Of a stretch of DNA of 64,000 bases, positions 23,015 to 40,300 are shown in pieces. The notes under the pieces are model-generated. The model did no database searches, was not told where the DNA came from, and saw nothing but the letters and a program-made list of their open reading frames with translations. Numbering within the stretch: position 1 is the stretch's first letter; every line of letters starts with the position of its first letter. The stretch lies in assembly GCF_009914755.1 (NCBI RefSeq), contig NC_060938.1; one strand, 5' to 3'. Position numbers and translations under genes: made by a program. The stretch is from the human T2T-CHM13v2.0 reference genome, Homo sapiens.

Positions 23015-23829
23015 TGTATGAGTTTTCTGTTGCCATTATAACAAATCATCACCTTCTTAGTGGCTTGAAACAACGTGAATTTATCTCACTGTTCTGCAGG
23101 TCAGAAATCCAGAATGGGACTGTGTTCCTCTCCGGAGGTTCTAGGAGAGAATCCACTTATTTGTCTTTTCCAGCTTCTAGAGGCTGCCCATATTCCTTGG
23201 CTCATGGCCCTTCATCACTATGACCTCTGTTTATTTTATCACCTCTTGTCCCTTCAGTCTGACACCCCTGCCTCCCTCTTATAAGGACCACTGTAATTAC
23301 ATCAAGCCATCCAGATAATCTGGAATCATGTTCCCATCTCAACATCCTTAACTTACTCACATCTACAAAGTTCCCTTTGCCATCTAAGGTAACATAGTCA
23401 CAGGTTTGAGGGATTGGGACGTGGACATCTTTGGAGGGGCATTCTTCTGATATGGTTTGGCTGTGTCCCAACCCAAATGTCATCTTGAATTGTAGTTTCC
23501 ATAATCCACATGTGTCATGGGAGGGACCTGGTGGGAGGTAACTGAATCATGGGAGAGGTCACCCCATGCTGCTGTTCTCATGACAGTGAGTGACTTCTCA
23601 CAAGATGTGATGGTTTCATAAGGGGCTTTCCCTGCTTTTGCTCAGCACTTCTTCCTGCCATCTTGTGGAGAAGGACGTGTTTGCTTCCCCTTCCACGACC
23701 ATTGTAAGTTTCCTGAGGCCTCCCCAGCCATACAGAACTGTGAGTCATTTAAACCTCTTTCCTTTATAAATTACCCAGTCTCAGGCAGTCCTTTACAGCA
23801 GTGTGAGAACGAAATAATACACTACCTCA
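23015..23829 (-). mobile_element. MLT1C/D-type LTR interrupted near its end by THE1
   Basis: ttccagcttctagaggctgccc...taaggtaacatagtcacaggtt...gacgtggacatctttggagggg; terminal ctacctca lies after the THE1. Confidence 0.8.
23448..23821 (+). mobile_element. THE1 solo LTR nested in MLT1
   Basis: tgatatggtttggctgtgtccc...tttataaattacccagtctc...taataca. Confidence 0.92.
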
Positions 23830-25063
23830 ATGACAGTAGGACTGCATTAATGCATTGATAAGGACTGCAGTGGAAGCTCGGAGGTGGGATACCTTATGCA
23901 GTTTTGAGAATCAGGGTTTCATCATCTAGAAAGCAAGAGTTTGAATGCACCGATTCCCAAGGCCACAACCTTGAACATTCTGAAATCTACAAAAAGCCAG
24001 TGTCTTTCCTACTGTAGTATTTTGGGTTTGCTGAATCTAAGGTCTACTTGTGAAGTCAACATCTTTGCAAGTTATCAATATTAAGAAAAAGGACCCACAC
24101 ATAATATCTGGCTCCCTTCATGAACACACTCTACTATGTTCCCCCTGCCAGCTTCCCCAAAACAGCCTGGGGGCCATGGTCACAGGAACCACCAGCCCAC
24201 CCTCCAACAACTCAGAGGGACCTTGACGTTGGTTGAGGGGCCCTTGAAAAGGGAATGAAGTGCTGCTGAAGAGCGTCCCCCACCCTGCCCATGCCACCTA
24301 GCGGATCTTCTTTCAAACCCTGCATTTCTGAAGGCACGTCTTCCTGTGCTTGGCTGGGTGACTCATCACAAGGAGAAACGTTAGTCACATCAGATGACAC
24401 ATGGCAGCAGCTAAAACGGGAAAAGCGCTCCCTGAGTCATCCCTGGAGCCGGGCGGCAAAGGCTCCTCCTGGGACCATGTGTGGACCCTCCAATGAGGGG
24501 GGCCTGGGTCACCTTCACTGAGTGGACAGGACACTCAGTGAAGTTCCAAAGGACACTCAGTGAAGTTCCAAAGGACACTCCGCGTCTTTTTCCTCCATCT
24601 CCTGAAGGAAGCACAGTGAAGACTCCAGCATGGAAAAGCGTGTCCCACACGGCCTCGGCGCCTCCATGGATGATAGGCATGGGGCACCCCCTTTCCTCTG
24701 GAAGGTTCTGGTGGGGGGCAGCACACCGTCCACGGGAGCAACGGCCTCTGCATCTGCCCACTGCAGATTCACTTCGTATTTTTAGTTCCCAAACCTTGAC
24801 ATCCAAGCTCCCGCTCTGTGGCTTCCGCGGCAGCCTGGCAAGCTTCCTGTGAAGTCGCCCGCTGCTGAGCTTCCGCACCCTTCCTCCCGCAGAGCCAGCC
24901 AGTCATGGAAGAGCGGGATCATCCCGGAAGGTTGGTGCGACAGGAGTGGGTGGTGAGGAAGGCGAAGGCAGCCTTCTCGGAACCTGGCTCCCTGAGACAG
25001 GACATGGAAGCAGGGGTGTCCTCTTCTGTGGAACGTCATTTAGCTTCTTCTCACCCATTCTGC

Positions 25064-27218: not shown

Positions 27219-29499
27219 AAGAAATATGCAGGCAAAGGCTGGATGTGAATGGTCTTAGCCATCTCAGGTTAAAGAATAAGACAAAGGCAAGCAAGACATC
27301 AGAGCTTTAGGGAAGTCAAATCCAGGGTTCTGTTCTGCAGGGTAAAGTACATGGGGCAAGGGCATTAATGAAGCACTTCTAGTGGTGGGCATGAATTCTG
27401 CATCTCAGCATCCTGGGCCTTCAACCAGGGCCACCATCTCTTTATCCTGCTGTGACATCAGCAAGGTGGCAGGCCCCTGGAGCACAGGTAGGCCTACGGG
27501 CTTTCCTATGTGTCCCACCAGAAGTTCCAGATGGTGTAGATGTGCACCAGGCAAGGGGAACACTGGTGTGGCTAGGCTTTAATGACCCAGTTGAGACTAA
27601 GCTGCTTTCCCATGGGAGGAAGGCCTGCTCGAGATTCTACACACCCTAAGCTAGACTTCTAGTTTAAGGAGGACTGAAGTCTTCAATCATATCACTTTAA
27701 ATATACAATGACAAGTCACTTTGGAGAGTCACAAATGTTTTGAGCTGGAAAGAATATTTGAAATTGGGTAGTTAACTGCTCCCATCCCATATCCCAGAGG
27801 CGGGAAATTGGGTGCAGGCTGTGGAAATGACTTTGTTAAGCATACACGTCTCCTAATGGCAGGAGGCTAGAACCCAGGGAATCCTATCATGTCATTGATC
27901 GAGAATTTGGGTTACGAAGGATTTGTGGTTCCATGGGTTCATTCAGTCTTTCTGACAGAAAGACTGCATTTTTCTGCATCTTATCTGATGCAGATAGAAC
28001 AGCAATGACTATTCCTGTGTAATTATGAGCAAAGTAAAGCTGCGGGGTTTGTTCTCATAGCTAGTAAGTTGCAATGCTGGGACTAGAATCCAGATCTCAG
28101 GACACCCAGACCAACATAGTTTCTACTTAGAATAACCACCCCTCTGGAATTTCAGAAAGAAAATTCTGTGTGCATTTCATTATGATTATATGGCATAACC
28201 CTCCTATAAGTTAATGAATCTTTAAAGGGTACAATCAAGAATGAATGAGTTGATTGATAAATGAGCAAATGGTTGCATAAATGAATGAATTGGTTAAATT
28301 CTGGGAGAAATAAAATAGATATTCTCATTAAAATTTCAATTGACCTATTAAATGCAGGATCCCCTGGGTCCTCTCTTTCTAGCTGACCTACAAAGCAATG
28401 AGGAAATGTTATTGTAGAAATGCCAAATTCTATCCACATTCTCCACTTATTCTTCTCATTCTAGTCTCTTTAAGACAGAATTTCAAGTATAAGCTAACCA
28501 GGGGCCTCCCCTCACCCCCCTCATAATTATTATATTATTATATGAGAGATTTGTGGAATTATAGCATCTCTTTTTTGGAAGGAACAGAAGAGAGCTTTCC
28601 TTCTGAAGAGAGAAAAGGAAAATGGTTGGTACAGTCCAAAAAGCCTAAGACTTGGGAGTCTCTAGTTATGTGAAAGGATTTAAGAAAATAATATATATTT
28701 TTAATGATTCCTCACTCAAAGAAGATACTTGGTTGATTTTAATTGGAGGACTTATGTTCTTCCAAGTCATTAGAGCCAGAGCCCTTAGCTTCACAACTTT
28801 GGTATCTTGCAAAAGCGTTTTGAAGTTTATCTTGTGCACTCCAATTCTTAATCTTTTGAATGTCACCTCCTTCGTGAAGCCTTCTCTGATAGCTTCCTTT
28901 CCTTTGTCCAGATCAAATAATCACTCTCTACTCTGCACCCTTCTTGAACCCTCTACATTCTTTAATAATTGCAGTGTTTTCCAGAGGTACCCATAAAGGT
29001 CCCTCAGTGGCAAACAACAGAACCTAACTCTGGATGACTTTTGCAGAAAAAAGTTAATTTGGACGTTTGAAAGTCAGAAGGAAGGCTGAACAATTAGAAT
29101 TTGAGAGGATGAGAACTGGACCAACCACCACTGTCGGAATGCATAAGTTTTGTTCATTTTCTTTCCTGTGTCATTCCACTCCGGATTGTCTGAGCTTGTG
29201 TACGCCACCTGCCCTTTTCTTGGCCAGAAGATGGCAGAGTTCCTCAACTGACCCGACCCTCCCATCCAAATCTATCTGCTGTTTCTAGAAGATGGGGATG
29301 GGTAAAGTGAGAGAGAGGTTCACAGTCCCACCCCCATGGTGTTAATTGTTGACATATGTGTTTGTCCTCTAACCCCGCAAGACTCTGAACATCTTGAAAG
29401 CAGGAACTGTGTTTTCTTCAGATGTTCAATTCATGTGAGTCAACATCTCAATGGTGTCAAGGTAATACAAAGAGTATGGCCAAAGAAGGTAGACAGGGC

Positions 29500-30170
29500 T
29501 ACTGCCTACCAGATGCAAATGTCTTTTCCAGCCATCTCTGAGAGATTCTCTATGAACACAGATCTGACACCCTTAAGAAGAATCTAAAAGAGCAGCACTG
29601 AGCTAATATATTCCATCTTCCTTCAGGTTCTTTTTAGGGGGAGATATAGGATGGCGATAACCTAATGCGACATCTTTTTGTTTCTAGAAGAACTCTGGTA
29701 AGTGATGAATGGATGTTAGGGTTTCCAGAACTACCAGAACTAGGTTTCCTTTTCTTTTTTCCTTCCTGCTGCTGAGAATTTATTTCTGGTAGTCATTAAA
29801 ATTCTGCTCCTACCATTTGTAACAAATGATAGAAAGCACTAGGTACAGTATGTGGAGTATATGTTTATGAAAACGAGAGACGAGTACCTTCCAACACTTT
29901 GGGATTTTATGAATGATTTACATCAGGTGCTAAAGTTCACAAATGAAACGTGCGGGAAGCAGATGCTTCGCTTCTTGACTGCATCGTGCCTGCCCATACT
30001 GATGGGGAATTGAAAACAGTGAGGTCTCATAAATCAACAAAATCTATTTTTGTGCCTCTTGATCTCCACTCTGAACATCCATATAATACCCAAACAAATG
30101 TGCTGAAATTAGTTCCTCAAGAAGCCCTTTATGTTTAGTAACAGTGTGGACATGTTAATAAAAAGAAGAG
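29500..30170 (+). mobile_element. Decayed Penelope-like element (PLE) reverse transcriptase / thumb fossil
   Basis: Frame from 29666: CDIFLFLEELW*VMNGC*G..; PAAENLFL; RKH*VQYVEYMF (YVDD position); DFMNDLHQVLKFTNE..MLRFL; one frameshift at 29977; DCIV..DGELKT..HKST..LDLHSEHPYNTQTNVLK. Motif order and spacing match PLE RT. Confidence 0.7.
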
Positions 30171-30494
30171 AGGAATAAAAGTGGACTGGTGGGGGGAGAG
30201 GGAAGGCACGGGGATGTGAGTGAAAGAAAACCAAACCTCAGAGTAGATGAACTCTTCCAGAACACTTATTTTTGGAGAATGGGAAAGGAAGTGTGGTGCT
30301 GTGCAGAACAGATGAGGAGGACCCGCTCTGGCCATCCTGGGGCTTCCCTAATTTGGAAAGAGAGTTGATCCGGGTAAAGGAGCGTTGTTGAATTGCAAAT
30401 GAAAAAGAACTCACATCTGGAAATGAACTTTAGTTGGCAATTGGAAAATCATGGAAAGATACTTGTAAGGAAGACAGGGAGCTGATGTTTTGTA

Positions 30495-30680
30495 CTTTTT
30501 TCTCCTCTCTCTCTCTTTCTCATTGTTTCTTTCTTTCCTTCCTTTCTTTTTTTCCTCCCTCCCTCCTCCCATCTGCCCCTCCCCTCTCCTCCCCTCTCTT
30601 TCTTTTCCCTTCCCCTCCCTCCCTCCCTCCCTCTCTCCCTTCCTTCCTTCCTTGTTCCCTCCCTCCCTCCCTTCCTTCCT
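30495..30680. repeat. CT-rich polypyrimidine tract
   Basis: ccct/cctt units, almost no purines. Confidence 0.9.
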
Positions 30681-30994
30681 TGTAAAATATGGTCTTATAG
30701 GAAACATGGTGACTCTGTACAAGAAAAAAGTAGAGCTTTCTTCAGAGTTCTATGCTGGGCCAGGCTCTGTGGAGTAATACACACGATTGTTTTTCTCATC
30801 TTGGTATCTCTGCCCCCATCCTGGCTCCAATTCTTTGAGTTTCTCCTCTGATTATTATAAAAAGTCTAGTCTATCACCCTAAATTTGCACTTTAGCATCT
30901 TACATGTCTCTTTCATTGTTTCATGTTTTATCGAATCAGTAGAATTTCCAATTTCTTAAAGGCAGAGACTTTGGGGCAGATAATTTGTTATTTC

Positions 30995-31900
30995 TTTTTT
31001 TATTATGCTTTAAGTTTTAGGATACATGTGCACAATGTGCAGGTTTGTTACATATATATACATGTGCCATGTTGGTGTGCTGCACCCATTAACTCATCAT
31101 TTAACATTAGGTATATCTCCTAACGCTATCCCTCCCCCCTTCCCCCACCCCACAACAGGCCCCGACGTGTGATGCTCCCCTTCCTGTGTCCATGTGTTCT
31201 CATTGTTCAATTCCCACCTATGAGTGAGAACATGCGGTGTTTGGTTTTTTTGTCCTTGCGATAGTTTGCTGAGAATGATGGTTTCCAGCTTCATCCATGT
31301 CCCTACAAAGGACATGAACTCATCCTTTTTTATGGCTGCATAGTATTCCATGGTGTATATGTGCCACATTTTCTTAATACAGTCTGTCATTGTTGGACAT
31401 TTGGGTTGGTTCCAAGTCTTTGCTATTGTGAATAGTGCCGCAGTAAACATACGTGTGCATGTGTCTTTATAGTAGAATGATTTATAATCCTTTGGGTATA
31501 TACCCAGTAATGGGATGGCTGGGTCAAATGGTATTTCTAGTTCTAGATCCCTGAGGAATTGCCACACTGACTTCCACAATGGTTGAACTAGTTTACAGTC
31601 CCACCAACAGTGTAAAAGTATTCCTATTTCTCCACATCCTCTCCAGGGCCTGTTGTTTCCTGACTTTTTAGTGATCACCATTCTAACTGGTGTGAGATGG
31701 TATCTCATTGTGGTTTTGATTTGCATTTCTCTGATGGCCAGTAATGATGAGCATTTTTTCATATGTCTTTTGGCTGCATAAATGTCTTCTTTTGAGAAGT
31801 GTCTGTTCATATCCTTCACCCACTTTTTGATGGGGTTGTTTGTTTTTTTCTTGTAAATTTGTCTGAGTTAATTGTAGATTCTGGATATTAGCCCTTTGTC
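30995..31900 (-). mobile_element. 5'-truncated L1PA4-type LINE-1
   Basis: ORF 31097-31819 is the L1 ORF2 C-terminus; 3'UTR and short T-tail; TSD atttcttaa(a/g)ggcagagact at 30951-30970 and 31901-31920. Confidence 0.95.
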
Positions 31901-32759
31901 ATTTCTTAAGGGCAGAGACTATCGTGTTTTGGTGTGGGGTTGCAAAACCTAGTCTCCTAAATACCAAGTAGGGGACATTGCCTTGGGCCAGTTCCATTCC
32001 TCCAGCATGATAGAGAAGGTAGACTAGGTGCTGTGAACATAAACTTGGTAAGAGGAAGTCTCTCCCTGCAAAGGCCTCCCAGTTGGTGAGGAGGGGTGGA
32101 TCTGTCTATAATTACAAGGATCTAGAGCCATGCTGGCTTGAGATTCAAAGCACATTGAGAGCCAAAATAGGAAAAGAGCAATTATTTCCAGGGAAGCCCA
32201 AGGAGCTTCACAGAGGAGGTAACTTGAGCTGAGCCTGGAAGAAGATGCATTTTGGGGAGTGCAGTAACTGGAAAGGCAGGAATAGATGAAGAAGAGATGC
32301 CTATTACTTTTGCTTTTTTTCCTTCCAGCCAGAAGAACCACATTCATTATAATGAAGCAATGGTTTTCTAAATTAATTTGCCTTGGGAATGGTAAGAGTT
32401 AAGGTACACCTTACCACTGTGTCTATCTTATATCTGGTAAGGAGTTTATTCATTCACAGTTTCTAGCTGGTTGACTTTTACAAATGAAGCAATAAACACA
32501 ACAATATTAAATATGCATCTATAATATGTCTTCACATTTATTTCCATTGCCATCATTCTCAAGTACCCACCGAATCCTTTGTTGAATTTTCTCCCCTTTG
32601 TATTTGAGCTTCTACATGCAAGAGACTTTTTGATTTACGGATTTCCTCTATACTTAGTTTACAAAAAACAGCAGGAGATGAATGAAAAAAAGACAAGAAA
32701 AAAACAATTTCCAGCTCTGTCCTGAAGCCTGTGCTGCATTTAAAAAAATGCAAAATTCA

Positions 32760-37300: not shown

Positions 37301-40300
37301 TCTGCTTGTTGTTGTTCAGAGATTCTATATCTCACTGGTTTAATCTAAGAGGGTTGTATATTTCCAGGAATTTATCTATCTCCTCTAGGTTTTCTAGTTT
37401 TTGTGCATTGTTCATAGTAGCCTTGAATAATCTTTTGTGTTTCTGTGGTAACAGTTCTAACATCTCCCATTTCATTTCTAAATGAGCTTATTTGGATCTT
37501 CTCTCAGCTAATTGTCTATCAATTTTACGTATCTTTTCAAAGAACCAGGTTTTTGTTTCATTTATCTTTTGTATTTTTTTTTGTTTCAATTTCATTTAGT
37601 TCTGCTCTGATCTTTGTTATTTCTTTTCTTTTGCTGGGTTTGGGTTTGGTTTGTCCTTGTTTCTCCAGGTGCATGAGGTATGATCTTAGATTGTCTATTT
37701 GTGCTTTTTAGACTTTTTGTGTAACTATTTAATGTTATGAACTTTTCTCTTAGCACTGCTTTTGCTGTATCCCCAAGGTTTTGATAGGTTGTGTCACTAT
37801 TGTCATTCAGTTCAAAGAAATTTTAATTTTCATCTTGGTATCATTGTTGACTCAATGATCATTCAGGAGCAGGTTATTTAATTTCCATGTATTTGCATGG
37901 TTTTGAGGGTTCTTTTTTGAGTTGATTTCCAATTTTATTCCACTGTGGTCTGACAGAGTGCTTGATATAATTTCAAATTTCTTAAATTTACTGAGACTTG
38001 TTTTGCGGCCTATCATATTCTTGGAGAATGTTCCATGTGCTGATGAATAGAAAGTATATTCTGCTGTTGTTGGGTAGAATGTTCTGTAAATACATATTAA
38101 GTCCATTTATTGCAGGGTATATTTGAAGTCCGTTGTTTCTTGGTTGACTTTCTGTGTTAATGATCTGTCTAGTGCTGTCAGTGGAGTATTGAAGTCCCCC
38201 ACTATTACTGTGCTGCCATCTATCTCATTTCTTAGGTCTAGTAGTAATTGTTTTATAAATTTGGGAGCTCCAGTGTTGAGTGCATATATATTTAGAATTG
38301 TGATATTTTCCTGTTGGACTAGTCCTTTTATCATTATATAATGTCCCTCTTTGTCTTTTTAAACTGCTGTTGCTTTAAAGTTTGTTTTGTCTGATGTAAG
38401 AATAGCTACTCCTGCTTGCTTTTGGTGTCCATTTGCATGGAATATCTTTTTCCACCCCTTTACCTTAAGTTTAGGTGAGTCCTGATGTGTTAGGTGAGTC
38501 TCCTGAAAACACCAGAAACTTGATTGGTGAATTCTTATCCACTCTGTCATTCTGTATCTTTTAAGTGGAGCATTTAGGCCATTTACATTCAGTGTTAGTA
38601 TTGAGATGTGAGGAACTATTCTATTCATTGTGTGATTTGTAGCCTGGATACCTTTTTTTAAATTGTGTTATTGTTATATAGGTCCTGTGAGATGTATGCT
38701 TTAGGAGATTCTATTTTGATGCATTTCAAGAATTCGTTTCAAGATTTAGAGCTCATTTTAGCAGTTCTTGTAGGTTTGGTAGTGGTGAATTCTCTCAGCA
38801 TTTGTGTGGAAAAGATTGTATCTTTCCTTCATTTATGAAGCTTAGTTTTGCTGGATACAAAATTCTTGGCTGATAATTGTTTTGCTTAAGGAGGCTAAAA
38901 ATAGGACCCCAATCCCTTCCAGCTTTTAGGGTTTCTGCTGAGAAATCTGCTGTTAATCTGGTAGGTTTTCTTTTATAGGTTACCGGATGCTTTTGCCTCG
39001 CAGCTCTTAAGATTCTTTCCTTTGTCTTGACTTTACATAACCTGATGACTATGTGCCTAGGCAATAATTTTTTGTGATGAATTTCCCAGGTGTTATTTGA
39101 GCTTCTTGTATTTGGATGTCTAGATCTCTAACAAGGCTGGGGAAGTTTTCCTTGATTACCCCCTCAAATATGTTTTCCAAACTTTCAGATTTCTCTTCTT
39201 CCATGGAAGTACCAGTTATTCTTAGGTTTGGATGTTTAACATAGTCCCAAACTTCTTGGAGGCTTCGTTCGTTTTTCTCAATTCTTTTTTCTTTGTCTTT
39301 GATAGATTGGGTTAATTTGAAAGCTTCGTCTTCAAGCTCTGAGGTTCTTTCTTCTGCTTTTTCAAATCTATTGCTGAGACTTTCCAGTGCATCTTGCATT
39401 TCTCTAAGTGTGTCCTTGATTTCCAGAAGTTGTGATTGTTTTTTATTCATGTTCTCTATTTCACTGACAAATTTTCCTTTCATATCCTGTATCATGTTTT
39501 TGTTTTCTTTAAGTTGGACTTCTCCTTTCTCTGGTGTCTCTTGATTAGCTGAATAATAGACTTTCTGAATTCTTTTTCTGGCAATTCAGAGATTTCACCT
39601 TGGTTTGGATCCATTGCTGGTGAGCTGGTATGATCTTTGGGGGGTGTTAAAGAACCTTGTTTTGTCATGTTACCAGAATTATTTTTCTGGTTCCTTCTCT
39701 TTTGTGTAGACTATGTCAGAGGGAAGATCTGGGATTCAAGGGCTGCTATTCAGATTGTTTTGTCCCACGGGGTGCTCCCTTGATGTGGTGTTCTCCCCCT
39801 TTCCCTAGCAATGGGGTTTCCTGAGAGCCAAACTGTAGTGACTGTTTCTATTCTTCTGGGTCTAGCCATCCAATGGGGCTACTGGACTCCAGGCTGGTAT
39901 TGGGGAGTGTCTGCGAAGAGTTCTGTGCTGTGATCCATCTTTAGGTCTTGCAGCCATGGATACCAACACCTGCTCTGGAGGTAGCAGGGGTGTGAAGTGG
40001 ACTCTATGAGAGTCTTGGTTGTATTTTTGTTTAGTGTGCTGGTTTTGTGTTGGTTGGCCTCCACCCAGGAGGTGACTCTTTCAAGAGTGCATCAGCTGTG
40101 GTCCTACAGGGAGGATGCAAACTTGCCTTAGAGACACCTGGTTAAGTATTCAGGATTCTCAGACAGTGGGCAGGGCCATAGAGCTCCCAAGCGATTATGA
40201 CCTTTGTTTTTGGCTACCTGGGTGGGTAGAGAAAGACCACCAGGTGTGGGCAGGGATAGGCTTGTCTGAGCTCAGCCTCTCCTTGCAGCTGCTGTGGGGG

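What the first reader, a model, noticed from the sequence alone, without database searches (positions are those of the whole stretch)
29500..30170. Hidden Penelope-like retroelement reverse-transcriptase fossil
Seen: reading through stops in the frame of 29666 gives CDIFLFLEELW*VMNGC*G, then a short local duplication (ccagaacta x2 bracketed by ggtttcc), then SFFLPAAENLFLVVIKILLLPFVTNDRKH*VQYVEYMFMKTRDEYLPTLWDFMNDLHQVLKFTNETCGKQMLRFL. A single missing G at about 29977 (ttc ttg [g]ac) joins this to DCIVPAHTDGELKTVRSHKSTKSIFVPLDLHSEHPYNTQTNVLKLVPQEALYV. Established: PLE RTs carry, in order, NxFxFxxxxYxQxxGxAMGSPxSPxxANLFM, WxRYVDDIF, LNxxHxxIKFTxE, LPFLD, DGxLxTxxYRKPT and LxxxSxHPxxxKxxV. All six are recognisable here with plausible spacing, and the catalytic YVDD has decayed to YVEY. 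A weaker motif-A-like trace (SL*TQI..EE..AAL) lies at about 29545-29600. I saw no GIY-YIG endonuclease downstream. Inference: PLEs are essentially extinct in mammals, so this would be a very old relic. Its survival at readable protein level in a regulatory desert suggests non-coding constraint (exaptation). The ORF track shows only its last 62 aa.
Basis: partly seen in the sequence, partly recalled or inferred. Interest (0 to 1): 0.8.

Follow-up and report, generated by a model that had tools for sequence, protein, structure and literature searches.

The report
Decayed Penelope-like reverse transcriptase relic
A roughly 350-440 base stretch of this human gene desert is the broken remnant of the reverse-transcriptase gene of a Penelope-like retrotransposon, a kind of relic already described in the human genome, and it looks better conserved than its flanks.

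Summary
The Penelope-like element (PLE) reading holds. No library on hand held a PLE. I therefore fetched nine PLE ORFs (RT, some with GIY-YIG) from mis-binned MAG contigs. A profile of their RT core ranks the 29843-30010 ORF first of 2776 six-frame peptides of the window (E 0.0025).

The read-through, with X at the stops and at the frameshift, scores 25.1 bits (E 1.9e-6). It is colinear from late motif 4 through the thumb. The best of 5000 shuffles scores 7.7 bits and the best of 3402 control read-throughs 5.1 bits. hhalign gives E 8.5e-5. An L1 control and Pfam RVT_1 give nothing. ESM Atlas neighbours of an orthologous ORF are RVT_1/HTH_animal/GIY-YIG clusters.

No motif A, upstream RT motifs, GIY-YIG or hammerhead was found. 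The locus is single-copy in this genome. At least 18 orthologous ORF clusters from other, unnamed species carry different stops and frameshifts, so it is not coding. Its core is more conserved than its flanks, which suggests but does not prove non-coding constraint. Frith 2022 already reports 56 pre-amniote human Penelope fossils, so this is a new or unlisted member of a known kind.

The parts
29672..29716 (+). Possible first half of RT motif 4/B (IFLFLEELW*VMNGC against the profile's lFqfngalykQtdGv). Colinear but not significant.
Evidence: -2.8 bits, E 0.82 among 3 frames.
29720..29749 (+). Local tandem duplication: ccagaacta twice (29725-29733, 29734-29742) between two ggtttcc (29720-29726, 29743-29749). 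It interrupts the motif 4 region.
   Evidence: Read directly. Some orthologous ORFs show a similar PEL-P.. repeat (P0013, P0002, P0003), so it is not human-specific.
29771..29977 (+). RT palm remnant in the frame of 29666: end of motif 4 (AENLFL), in-frame TAG at 29840-29842, motif 5 with the catalytic box decayed to YVEY (29849-29860), MNDLH (29909-29923), LKFTNE (29930-29947), LRFL of motif 7 (29966-29977).
   Evidence: PLE core profile positions 33-102. The ORF 29843-30010 is the top hit of 2776 window peptides (E 0.0025). The TAG is W in orthologous ORFs P0003, P0004, P0005, P0014, P0015, matching the W before RYVDD in the PLE references.
29947..29979 (+). Zone of the -1 frameshift that separates the two readable frames. 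An earlier position back to about 29947 is equally compatible.
   Evidence: Orthologous ORFs switch frame at different points here (P0007, P0012, P0016 against P0003, P0014).
29977..30138 (+). End of motif 7 and the PLE-type thumb (HTH_animal-like) in the frame of 29947: D of FLD, DGELKT (30001-30018), HKST (30028-30039), LDLHSEHP (30058-30081), TAG stop at 30136-30138.
   Evidence: profile positions 103-142 aligned up to 30105; hhalign over the same columns. Atlas neighbours carry PF26215 HTH_animal.
29653..30243 (.). Block for which orthologous ORFs from other species were found. The core 29756-30135 is better conserved than both flanks.
   Evidence: all 19 database ORFs map here and nowhere else in the window. 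Codon identity is 0.72-0.88 in the core (eleven of the ORFs, at 0.79-0.88, lie at or above the highest flank value) and 0.38-0.74 in the flanks.

Best explanation
Window 29771-30138 (+), possibly from about 29670, is a 5'- and 3'-truncated pseudogenised fragment of the single ORF of a Penelope-like retrotransposon.

It covers the C-terminal part of the RT palm and the PLE-specific thumb: end of motif 4/B, then motifs 5/C, 6/D and 7/E. It has four in-frame stops, one -1 frameshift, and the catalytic YVDD changed to YVEY, so it encodes nothing.

It was inserted by target-primed reverse transcription in a distant ancestor. All sister copies have decayed beyond recognition. This copy persists as single-copy DNA at orthologous loci of many species.

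Shown: the PLE origin, the absence of coding capacity, the orthologous copies, and the conservation peak over the fossil.

Inferred: the age (older than the mammalian radiation, because PLEs are not known to have been active in mammals). Also inferred is that the piece survives because the DNA itself is under non-coding constraint, most plausibly as a cis-regulatory element of this gene desert. This is the fate described for other human TE protein fossils.
For: 1. PLE references. A degenerate pattern for a recalled PLE thumb motif found 16 stretches in genome contigs. By my own arithmetic about 0.14 were expected by chance. One contig has 3083-base head-to-tail copies with an 891-aa ORF. Pfam gives RVT_1 at E 2e-7 to 1e-6 on 4 of 4 ORFs tested and GIY-YIG at E 3e-4 on 1 of 4.

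2. PLE core profile against all 2776 six-frame peptides of the window. The top hit is 29843-30010 (E 0.0025). The adjacent frame-B ORF ranks 6th (E 5.4) and is colinear.

3. Read-through with X at each break: 25.1 bits, E 1.9e-6 at Z=2776, one alignment over profile positions 33-142. 0 of 5000 shuffles reach it (maximum 7.7 bits). 0 of 3402 control read-throughs reach it (maximum 5.1 bits).

4. Natural uninterrupted ORFs from orthologous loci also match: P0015 7.9e-5, P0014 2.4e-4, P0003 2.8e-4, P0012 4.2e-4, P0005 7.1e-4, P0016 8.6e-4.

5. hhalign of A1 against A2: 111 columns, E 8.5e-5, probability 60%.

6. ESM Atlas for P0003. By features, clusters score 0.92 with PF26215 HTH_animal and RVT_1. 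By structure, 10 rows have TM 0.64-0.74 over 126-142 of 147 residues. All ten carry HTH_animal, seven RVT_1 and four GIY-YIG among the families shown.

7. Controls. An L1 ORF2 profile gives only negative scores on all 15 sequences it reports. Pfam gives no RVT_1 match.

8. Single copy. The DNA and both ORFs find only themselves in the own genome below E 1.

9. Orthologues and constraint. 19 database ORFs map only to 29653-30243. Stops and frameshifts differ among them. Codon identity, core against flank: P0008 0.85/0.53, P0011 0.81/0.38, P0003 0.88/0.64, P0005 0.88/0.42, P0015 0.81/0.41.

10. Literature. Frith 2022 (PMC9004415) reports 54 pre-amniote plus 2 pre-tetrapod Penelope fossils in human. 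These are often in gene deserts and strongly conserved. Craig 2021 (PMC8557442) states that PLEs are absent from mammals.
Against: - Single reference PLEs barely see the fossil. Only 1 of 9 gives a tblastn hit in the right place and frame (E 0.017).
- Searches of 1.84 and 5.8 billion proteins returned no true PLE at their thresholds.
- The PDB profile search gave no RT.
- hhalign probability is only 60%.
- My references are invertebrate-type PLEs of unknown clade. No L2, CR1 or RTE reference was available, so only L1 and the generic RVT_1 were excluded.
- Constraint: the species behind the orthologous ORFs are unknown. The ORFs are phylogenetically non-independent. Ends of tblastn alignments are biased. 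One ORF (P0002) shows no core/flank difference (0.72 against 0.74). P0013's 3' flank is 0.82 over 11 codons.
- No regulatory annotation covers the locus. The hub's only RefSeq enhancer is at 23605-24804.
Confidence: 0.88

Rival explanations
1. It is a genuine PLE RT relic but functionally inert. It survives by chance or because local mutation and deletion rates are low. The orthologous ORFs in the databases come only from fairly close relatives, so no selection is needed.
For: - The species of P0002-P0020 are unknown. Their identities to human (57-88%) could reflect neutral divergence within a shallow clade.
- No functional annotation lies at the locus (hub table).
- P0002 shows equal core and flank identity.
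Against: - No sister copy of the family is detectable in 3.1 Gb, as expected if unconstrained copies have vanished.
- In five of the ORFs that run past the core (P0003, P0005, P0008, P0011, P0015), the same ORF is 0.81-0.88 identical in the core and 0.38-0.64 in the flank. P0013 and P0020 differ less and P0002 not at all.
- Blocks such as HKSTKSIFVPLDLHSEHPYNTQTNV are almost unchanged even in the most divergent ORFs.
- PLEs are reported absent from mammals (PMC8557442), so the insertion should be very old.
Confidence: 0.3
2. It is a relic of another reverse-transcriptase clade (L2, CR1, RTE, DIRS, LTR element), not of a PLE.
For: All RTs share motifs 4-7. I had no L2, CR1 or RTE reference to compete against the PLE profile. 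Pairwise similarity to single PLEs is weak.
Against: - The alignment runs on for about 40 profile positions past motif 7, into the region that is conserved among the PLE references (DG.L.T..K.T...L..S.HP).
- Atlas neighbours all carry HTH_animal, several with GIY-YIG.
- Pfam RVT_1 and an L1 profile give nothing.
Confidence: 0.05
3. It is a chance resemblance of non-coding DNA to RT motifs.
For: - Large-database searches found no PLE.
- Pfam and the PDB are silent.
Against: - 25.1 bits against a maximum of 7.7 bits in 5000 shuffles and 5.1 bits in 3402 same-design controls.
- The unjoined ORF alone is the top hit of the window.
- Natural ORFs of orthologous loci match without any joining.
- The Atlas result is independent.
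Confidence: 0.03
4. It is part of a domesticated, still-coding PLE-derived gene or an unannotated exon.
For: An open 63-aa ORF exists, and the apparent protein-level conservation is high.
Against: - The human copy has four stops and a frameshift.
- Orthologous copies are broken at different places and switch frames differently.
- The catalytic box is lost.
- The hub's annotation table lists no gene within 100 kb.
Confidence: 0.02

Closest known systems
Human Penelope protein fossils of Frith 2022 (Mol Biol Evol 39:msac068, PMC9004415). Examples: hg38 chr13:106,429,488 (Penelope-2_CPB_pol) and chr4:187,183,800 (Neptune1_Ap_pol). A further 54 pre-amniote ones are not listed individually.
   Same: Short (about 180-260 bp there, about 370-440 bp here), single-copy, frame-broken fragments of PLE pol. 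They lie in large gene deserts and are strongly conserved. Almost none is annotated by RepeatMasker (1 of 54).
   Different: This locus is on chr14 and is not one of the two printed in Table 4. Whether it is among the 54 of Table 5 could not be checked, because the list is on GitHub/Zenodo. The age of this one is not established here.
UCON13, the only human Repbase family assigned to Penelope (Kojima 2018, PMC5753468, passages read)
   Same: An ancient conserved human repeat of PLE origin.
   Different: UCON13 is a repeat family with several copies. The present DNA finds only itself in the genome. No UCON13 sequence was on hand for a direct comparison.
Canonical EN+ Penelope-like elements (Penelope/Poseidon, Neptune, Nematis clades). 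References here: L012 891-aa ORF, L024, L018, L021.
   Same: Colinear late motif 4, motifs 5-7 and thumb. W before the catalytic box in orthologues. KFT.E, FLD, DG.L.T, K.T and S.HP are kept.
   Different: No N-terminal motifs, RT1-3, GIY-YIG, pLTR/tandem structure or hammerhead ribozyme. The catalytic aspartates are lost. About 23% identity to the PLE profile, against 33-40% among the references.
Second candidate PLE fossil in the same genome, G000:C8:137272652-137272804 (-) (L031)
   Same: It matches the same PLE core profile (19.0 bits, positions 58-97) and has one in-frame stop.
   Different: It keeps FVDD and is shorter. It shows little direct similarity to the chr14 fossil by eye, so it is probably a different family or insertion.

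Membership tests
Penelope-like element (PLE) reverse transcriptase | RT core motifs 4(B)-7(E), colinear and with PLE spacing | tested here: met
   - 25.1 bits, E 1.9e-6, profile positions 33-102. Controls reach at most 7.7 bits.
- Only the second half of motif 4 is inside the significant alignment.
Penelope-like element (PLE) reverse transcriptase | PLE-type thumb directly after motif 7. Pfam 38.1 PF26215 HTH_animal, as named by the Atlas, sits on such proteins. | tested here: met
   - profile positions 103-142.
- Atlas neighbours carry PF26215 (up to 100% of members).
- PF26215 itself is not in the local Pfam copy, so no direct HMM score exists.
Penelope-like element (PLE) reverse transcriptase | Intact catalytic Y[VA]DD | tested here: not met
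   YVEY at 29849-29860, and also YVEY/YAEY in the orthologous ORFs. This is expected of a dead fossil. It bears on activity, not on descent.
Penelope-like element (PLE) reverse transcriptase | GIY-YIG endonuclease in the same ORF (EN+ PLEs) | tested here: not met
   no match in 27500-32500 or anywhere in the window. This is compatible with a truncated fragment or an EN- element.
Penelope-like element (PLE) reverse transcriptase | Upstream RT motifs 1-3(A) and N-terminal PLE motifs | tested here: not met
the profile of three long PLE ORFs (814 positions, motif A at position 398) matches only 29828-29980.
Penelope-like element (PLE) reverse transcriptase | Partial tandem / pseudo-LTR arrangement and hammerhead ribozyme | tested here: not met
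   - no Rfam match with E up to 1 other than two chance snoRNA/miRNA rows in 28500-31500.
- no second copy.
Penelope-like element (PLE) reverse transcriptase | Closer to PLE than to other RT clades | tested here: inconclusive
   The L1 profile gives only negative scores and Pfam finds no RVT_1 match. L2, CR1, RTE, DIRS and LTR references were not available.
Exapted TE-derived conserved non-coding element | Present at the orthologous locus across distant species | tested here: inconclusive
   19 ORF clusters (18 differing from human) map to the locus. Their species are not known and were not sought.
Exapted TE-derived conserved non-coding element | Evolves more slowly than neighbouring neutral DNA | tested here: inconclusive
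   core 0.72-0.88 against flanks 0.38-0.74 in the same ORFs, with one ORF showing no difference. The samples are small and non-independent, and there is no phyloP.
Exapted TE-derived conserved non-coding element | Regulatory activity (chromatin marks, reporter assay) | not testable with these tools
   The hub table lists a RefSeq enhancer only at 23605-24804, not here.

The most novel reading that the evidence does not exclude
The fossil is a pre-amniote PLE insertion that is in no repeat or fossil annotation. Its DNA has been recruited as a deeply conserved cis-regulatory element of this chr14 gene desert. If so, a former RT palm/thumb coding sequence now serves as a binding platform for developmental gene control.
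Probability: 0.25. Interest if true: 0.5.

Novelty: new member of a known kind. Interest (0 to 1): 0.35.

Why it matters
PLEs are reported absent from mammals (PMC8557442). Each recognisable PLE fragment in human DNA therefore marks a very old insertion and is a candidate exapted element.

Frith 2022 showed that such fossils exist, cluster in gene deserts near developmental genes and are strongly conserved. This locus adds, or re-finds, one more. It is comparatively long, spanning motif 4 to the thumb.

It also shows that a careful reader can spot such fossils by eye where Pfam, the PDB and billion-sequence protein searches return nothing. It does not open a new kind of biology.

Tried and rejected
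- Pfam on the window ORFs, the read-through and 8 orthologous ORFs gave no RT family.
- PF26215 is not in the local Pfam copy.
- Large protein searches returned only short ORFs of the orthologous locus. No PLE appeared at E up to 0.001 (1.84 billion library) or at E up to 10 (5.8 billion library, 'longer': 0 of 8000 candidates).
- PDB profile search: 3 chance rows, no RT.
- PLE motif pattern and PLE alignment in viral contigs: 0 matches, and 0 of 76 pattern stretches confirmed.
- Single-sequence tblastn of 9 PLE ORFs: 1 useful hit only.
- AlphaFold2 on alignment A1: pLDDT 47, pTM 0.26. This is too poor, so no fold search was run on it.
- Rfam on 28500-31500: nothing real.
- Search for motif A, RT1-3 and GIY-YIG: nothing.
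- The supplement of PMC9004415 holds only a figure PDF with no chr14 entry. The list of fossils is on GitHub/Zenodo and could not be read.
- A paper search for LINC02304 found 1 unrelated GWAS paper (listing only).
- Rejected: a coding or domesticated gene, because the disruptions differ between species. Also rejected: chance resemblance, because of the controls.

Full report
**Observation**

- The frame of 29666 gives 104 codons with four stops (TAA 29699, TAG 29717, 29741, 29840). It ends ...VQYVEYMFMKTRDEYLPTLWDFMNDLHQVLKFTNETCGKQMLRFL.
- The 63-aa ORF 29947-30138 gives ...DCIVPAHTDGELKTVRSHKSTKSIFVPLDLHSEHPYNTQTNVLKLVPQEALYV.
- The two frames share the g at 29977, as a one-base loss would produce.
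- The small duplication (ccagaacta twice between two ggtttcc, 29720-29749) is there.

**Standard libraries say nothing**

- Pfam finds no family in the ORFs, in the read-through or in eight orthologous ORFs.
- The PDB profile search gives three chance rows and no RT.
- PF26215 (HTH_animal), which I recalled as the family on PLE thumbs, is not in the local Pfam copy.
- The DNA and both ORFs find only themselves in the 3.1-Gb genome below E 1.

**What the large protein databases return**

- A word-indexed search with the 63-aa ORF gave two ORFs of 147 and 164 aa, 95% and 84% identical.
- A full phmmer scan of 1.84 billion representatives with one of them (P0003) gave 8 hits, all 50-120 aa.
- A profile search gave 19.
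- A search among long proteins gave 0 of 8000 candidates at E up to 10.
- All 19 map to 29653-30243 and nowhere else in the window.

They are therefore chance ORFs over the orthologous locus in other species, which are unnamed and which I did not try to identify. They break frame and stop at different places. For example, the human TAG at 29840 is W in five of them and G in three. P0007, P0012 and P0016 change frame near 29950-29977 in different ways. So there is no protein-coding constraint, but the DNA is widely shared.

**Getting real PLEs**

No tool held a PLE, so I scanned for a degenerate DNA pattern of a short thumb motif recalled from memory.
- Viral contigs gave 0 matches.
- Genome contigs gave 16 stretches, against about 0.14 expected by my own arithmetic.
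- The matches lie in MAG contigs labelled bacterial. One contig has 3083-base head-to-tail copies with an 891-aa ORF.
- Pfam finds RVT_1 on 4 of 4 ORFs tested (E 2e-7 to 1e-6; one of the four just under the curated cut-off). It finds GIY-YIG on 1 of 4 (E 3e-4, just under the cut-off).
- RT followed by GIY-YIG, with partial tandems, is the PLE architecture (Craig 2021, PMC8557442, passages read). That paper also says that such 'bacterial' hits are eukaryotic contaminants.

Nine distinct ORFs were aligned as A2.

**Tests of identity**

- Single PLE ORFs by tblastn: only 1 of 9 hits the fossil in the right frame (29846-29977, 34% of 44 residues, E 0.017). That is nevertheless the best E-value of the whole output.
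- A profile of the PLE RT core against all 2776 six-frame peptides of the window puts 29843-30010 first (E 0.0025). The adjacent frame-B ORF ranks sixth (E 5.4) and is colinear.
- The read-through, with X at the stops and one X at the frameshift, scores 25.1 bits (E 1.9e-6 at Z=2776). It forms one alignment over profile positions 33-142, corresponding to 29771-30105.
- None of 5000 shuffles exceeds 7.7 bits. None of 3402 read-throughs of the same design elsewhere in the window exceeds 5.1 bits.
- Six natural, unjoined orthologous ORFs match at E 8e-5 to 9e-4.
- hhalign of the fossil alignment against the PLE alignment gives 111 columns, E 8.5e-5, probability 60%.
- An L1 ORF2 profile from six copies of this genome gives only negative scores.
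- Independently, the ESM Atlas holds P0003. By features, its nearest named clusters score 0.92 and carry HTH_animal and RVT_1. By structure, ten rows with TM 0.64-0.74 over 126-142 of 147 residues all carry HTH_animal, seven RVT_1 and four GIY-YIG among the families shown.
- The first Atlas call, with the human ORF, was only a lead (0.88-0.89).

**Extent**

- Nothing upstream or downstream matches. There is no motif A or RT1-3 with a profile that contains them, and no GIY-YIG. There is no hammerhead or other Rfam family.
- The motif-A trace at 29545-29600 is unsupported.
- The secure fossil is 29771-30138, possibly starting near 29670.

**Constraint**

I could not name species or run phyloP. 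I compared codon identity to human inside and outside the core for ORFs that run past it. Core against flank:
- P0008: 0.85 against 0.53.
- P0011: 0.81 against 0.38.
- P0003: 0.88 against 0.64.
- P0005: 0.88 against 0.42.
- P0015: 0.81 against 0.41.
- P0013: 0.85 against 0.68 (5' flank) and 0.82 (3' flank, 11 codons).
- P0002: 0.72 against 0.74, no difference.

This points to a conservation peak over the fossil. It rests on small, non-independent samples and on local-alignment ends. The lack of any sister copy in the genome, together with the reported absence of PLEs from mammals, argues that the insertion is very old and that unconstrained copies have vanished. That step is inference.

**Comparison with what is known**

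- Frith 2022 (PMC9004415; abstract, passages, section 9 with Tables 3-4 and the text of Table 5 read) reports two pre-tetrapod and 54 further pre-amniote Penelope protein fossils in human. 53 of the 54 are not in RepeatMasker. They are often in megabase gene deserts and strongly conserved, and are read as exapted.
- The two printed loci are on chr4 and chr13, not chr14. The full list is on GitHub/Zenodo and could not be read.
- Kojima 2018 (PMC5753468, passages) lists UCON13 as the one Penelope-derived Repbase family in human.
- The hub's list of the 20 longest masked stretches (each at least 207 bases) does not include this locus. So at most a short piece of it is masked.

**Verdict**

Exaptation is plausible but untested. 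The kind is already in print, so this is a new or unlisted member of a known kind and of moderate interest.

**Other attempts**

An AlphaFold2 model of A1 was too poor to use (pLDDT 47). A PLE alignment scan of viral contigs confirmed none of 76 pattern matches.

Noticed in passing
L031 (G000:C8:137272652-137272804, minus strand): A genome-wide search with the core of a reference PLE ORF gives this chr8 site (E 0.2 genome-wide). The PLE core profile scores it 19.0 bits over positions 58-97, with FVDD kept and one in-frame stop. It is probably a second, separate PLE RT fossil in this genome.
   Followed up: partly
L009-L024, especially L012 (contig CBDHDL010000009.1): MAG contigs labelled bacterial (several as Candidatus Poribacteria) carry full PLE ORFs with RT and GIY-YIG, one in 3083-base head-to-tail copies. 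The simplest reading is eukaryotic host DNA binned into the MAGs, as Craig 2021 notes for similar hits.
   Followed up: partly
window 39076-39450 (-): Two PLE ORFs give weak tblastn hits here (E 0.065 and 1.6), but with different PLE domains on the same DNA. The PLE profiles do not score it. It lies in stretches the hub lists as masked repeats. It is either chance or an unrelated RT relic.
   Followed up: no
window 30451-30536 (+): Sub-threshold Rfam rows (SNORD97 at 23 bits against a cut-off of 45; MIR529 at 19 bits against a cut-off of 75; E 0.6-0.7). Taken as chance.
   Followed up: no
G000:C12:89563568-89563723 (-) (L032): Second weak genome-wide hit of the PLE core (E 0.65). The profile gives only 5.6 bits, so it is not convincing.
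   Followed up: partly
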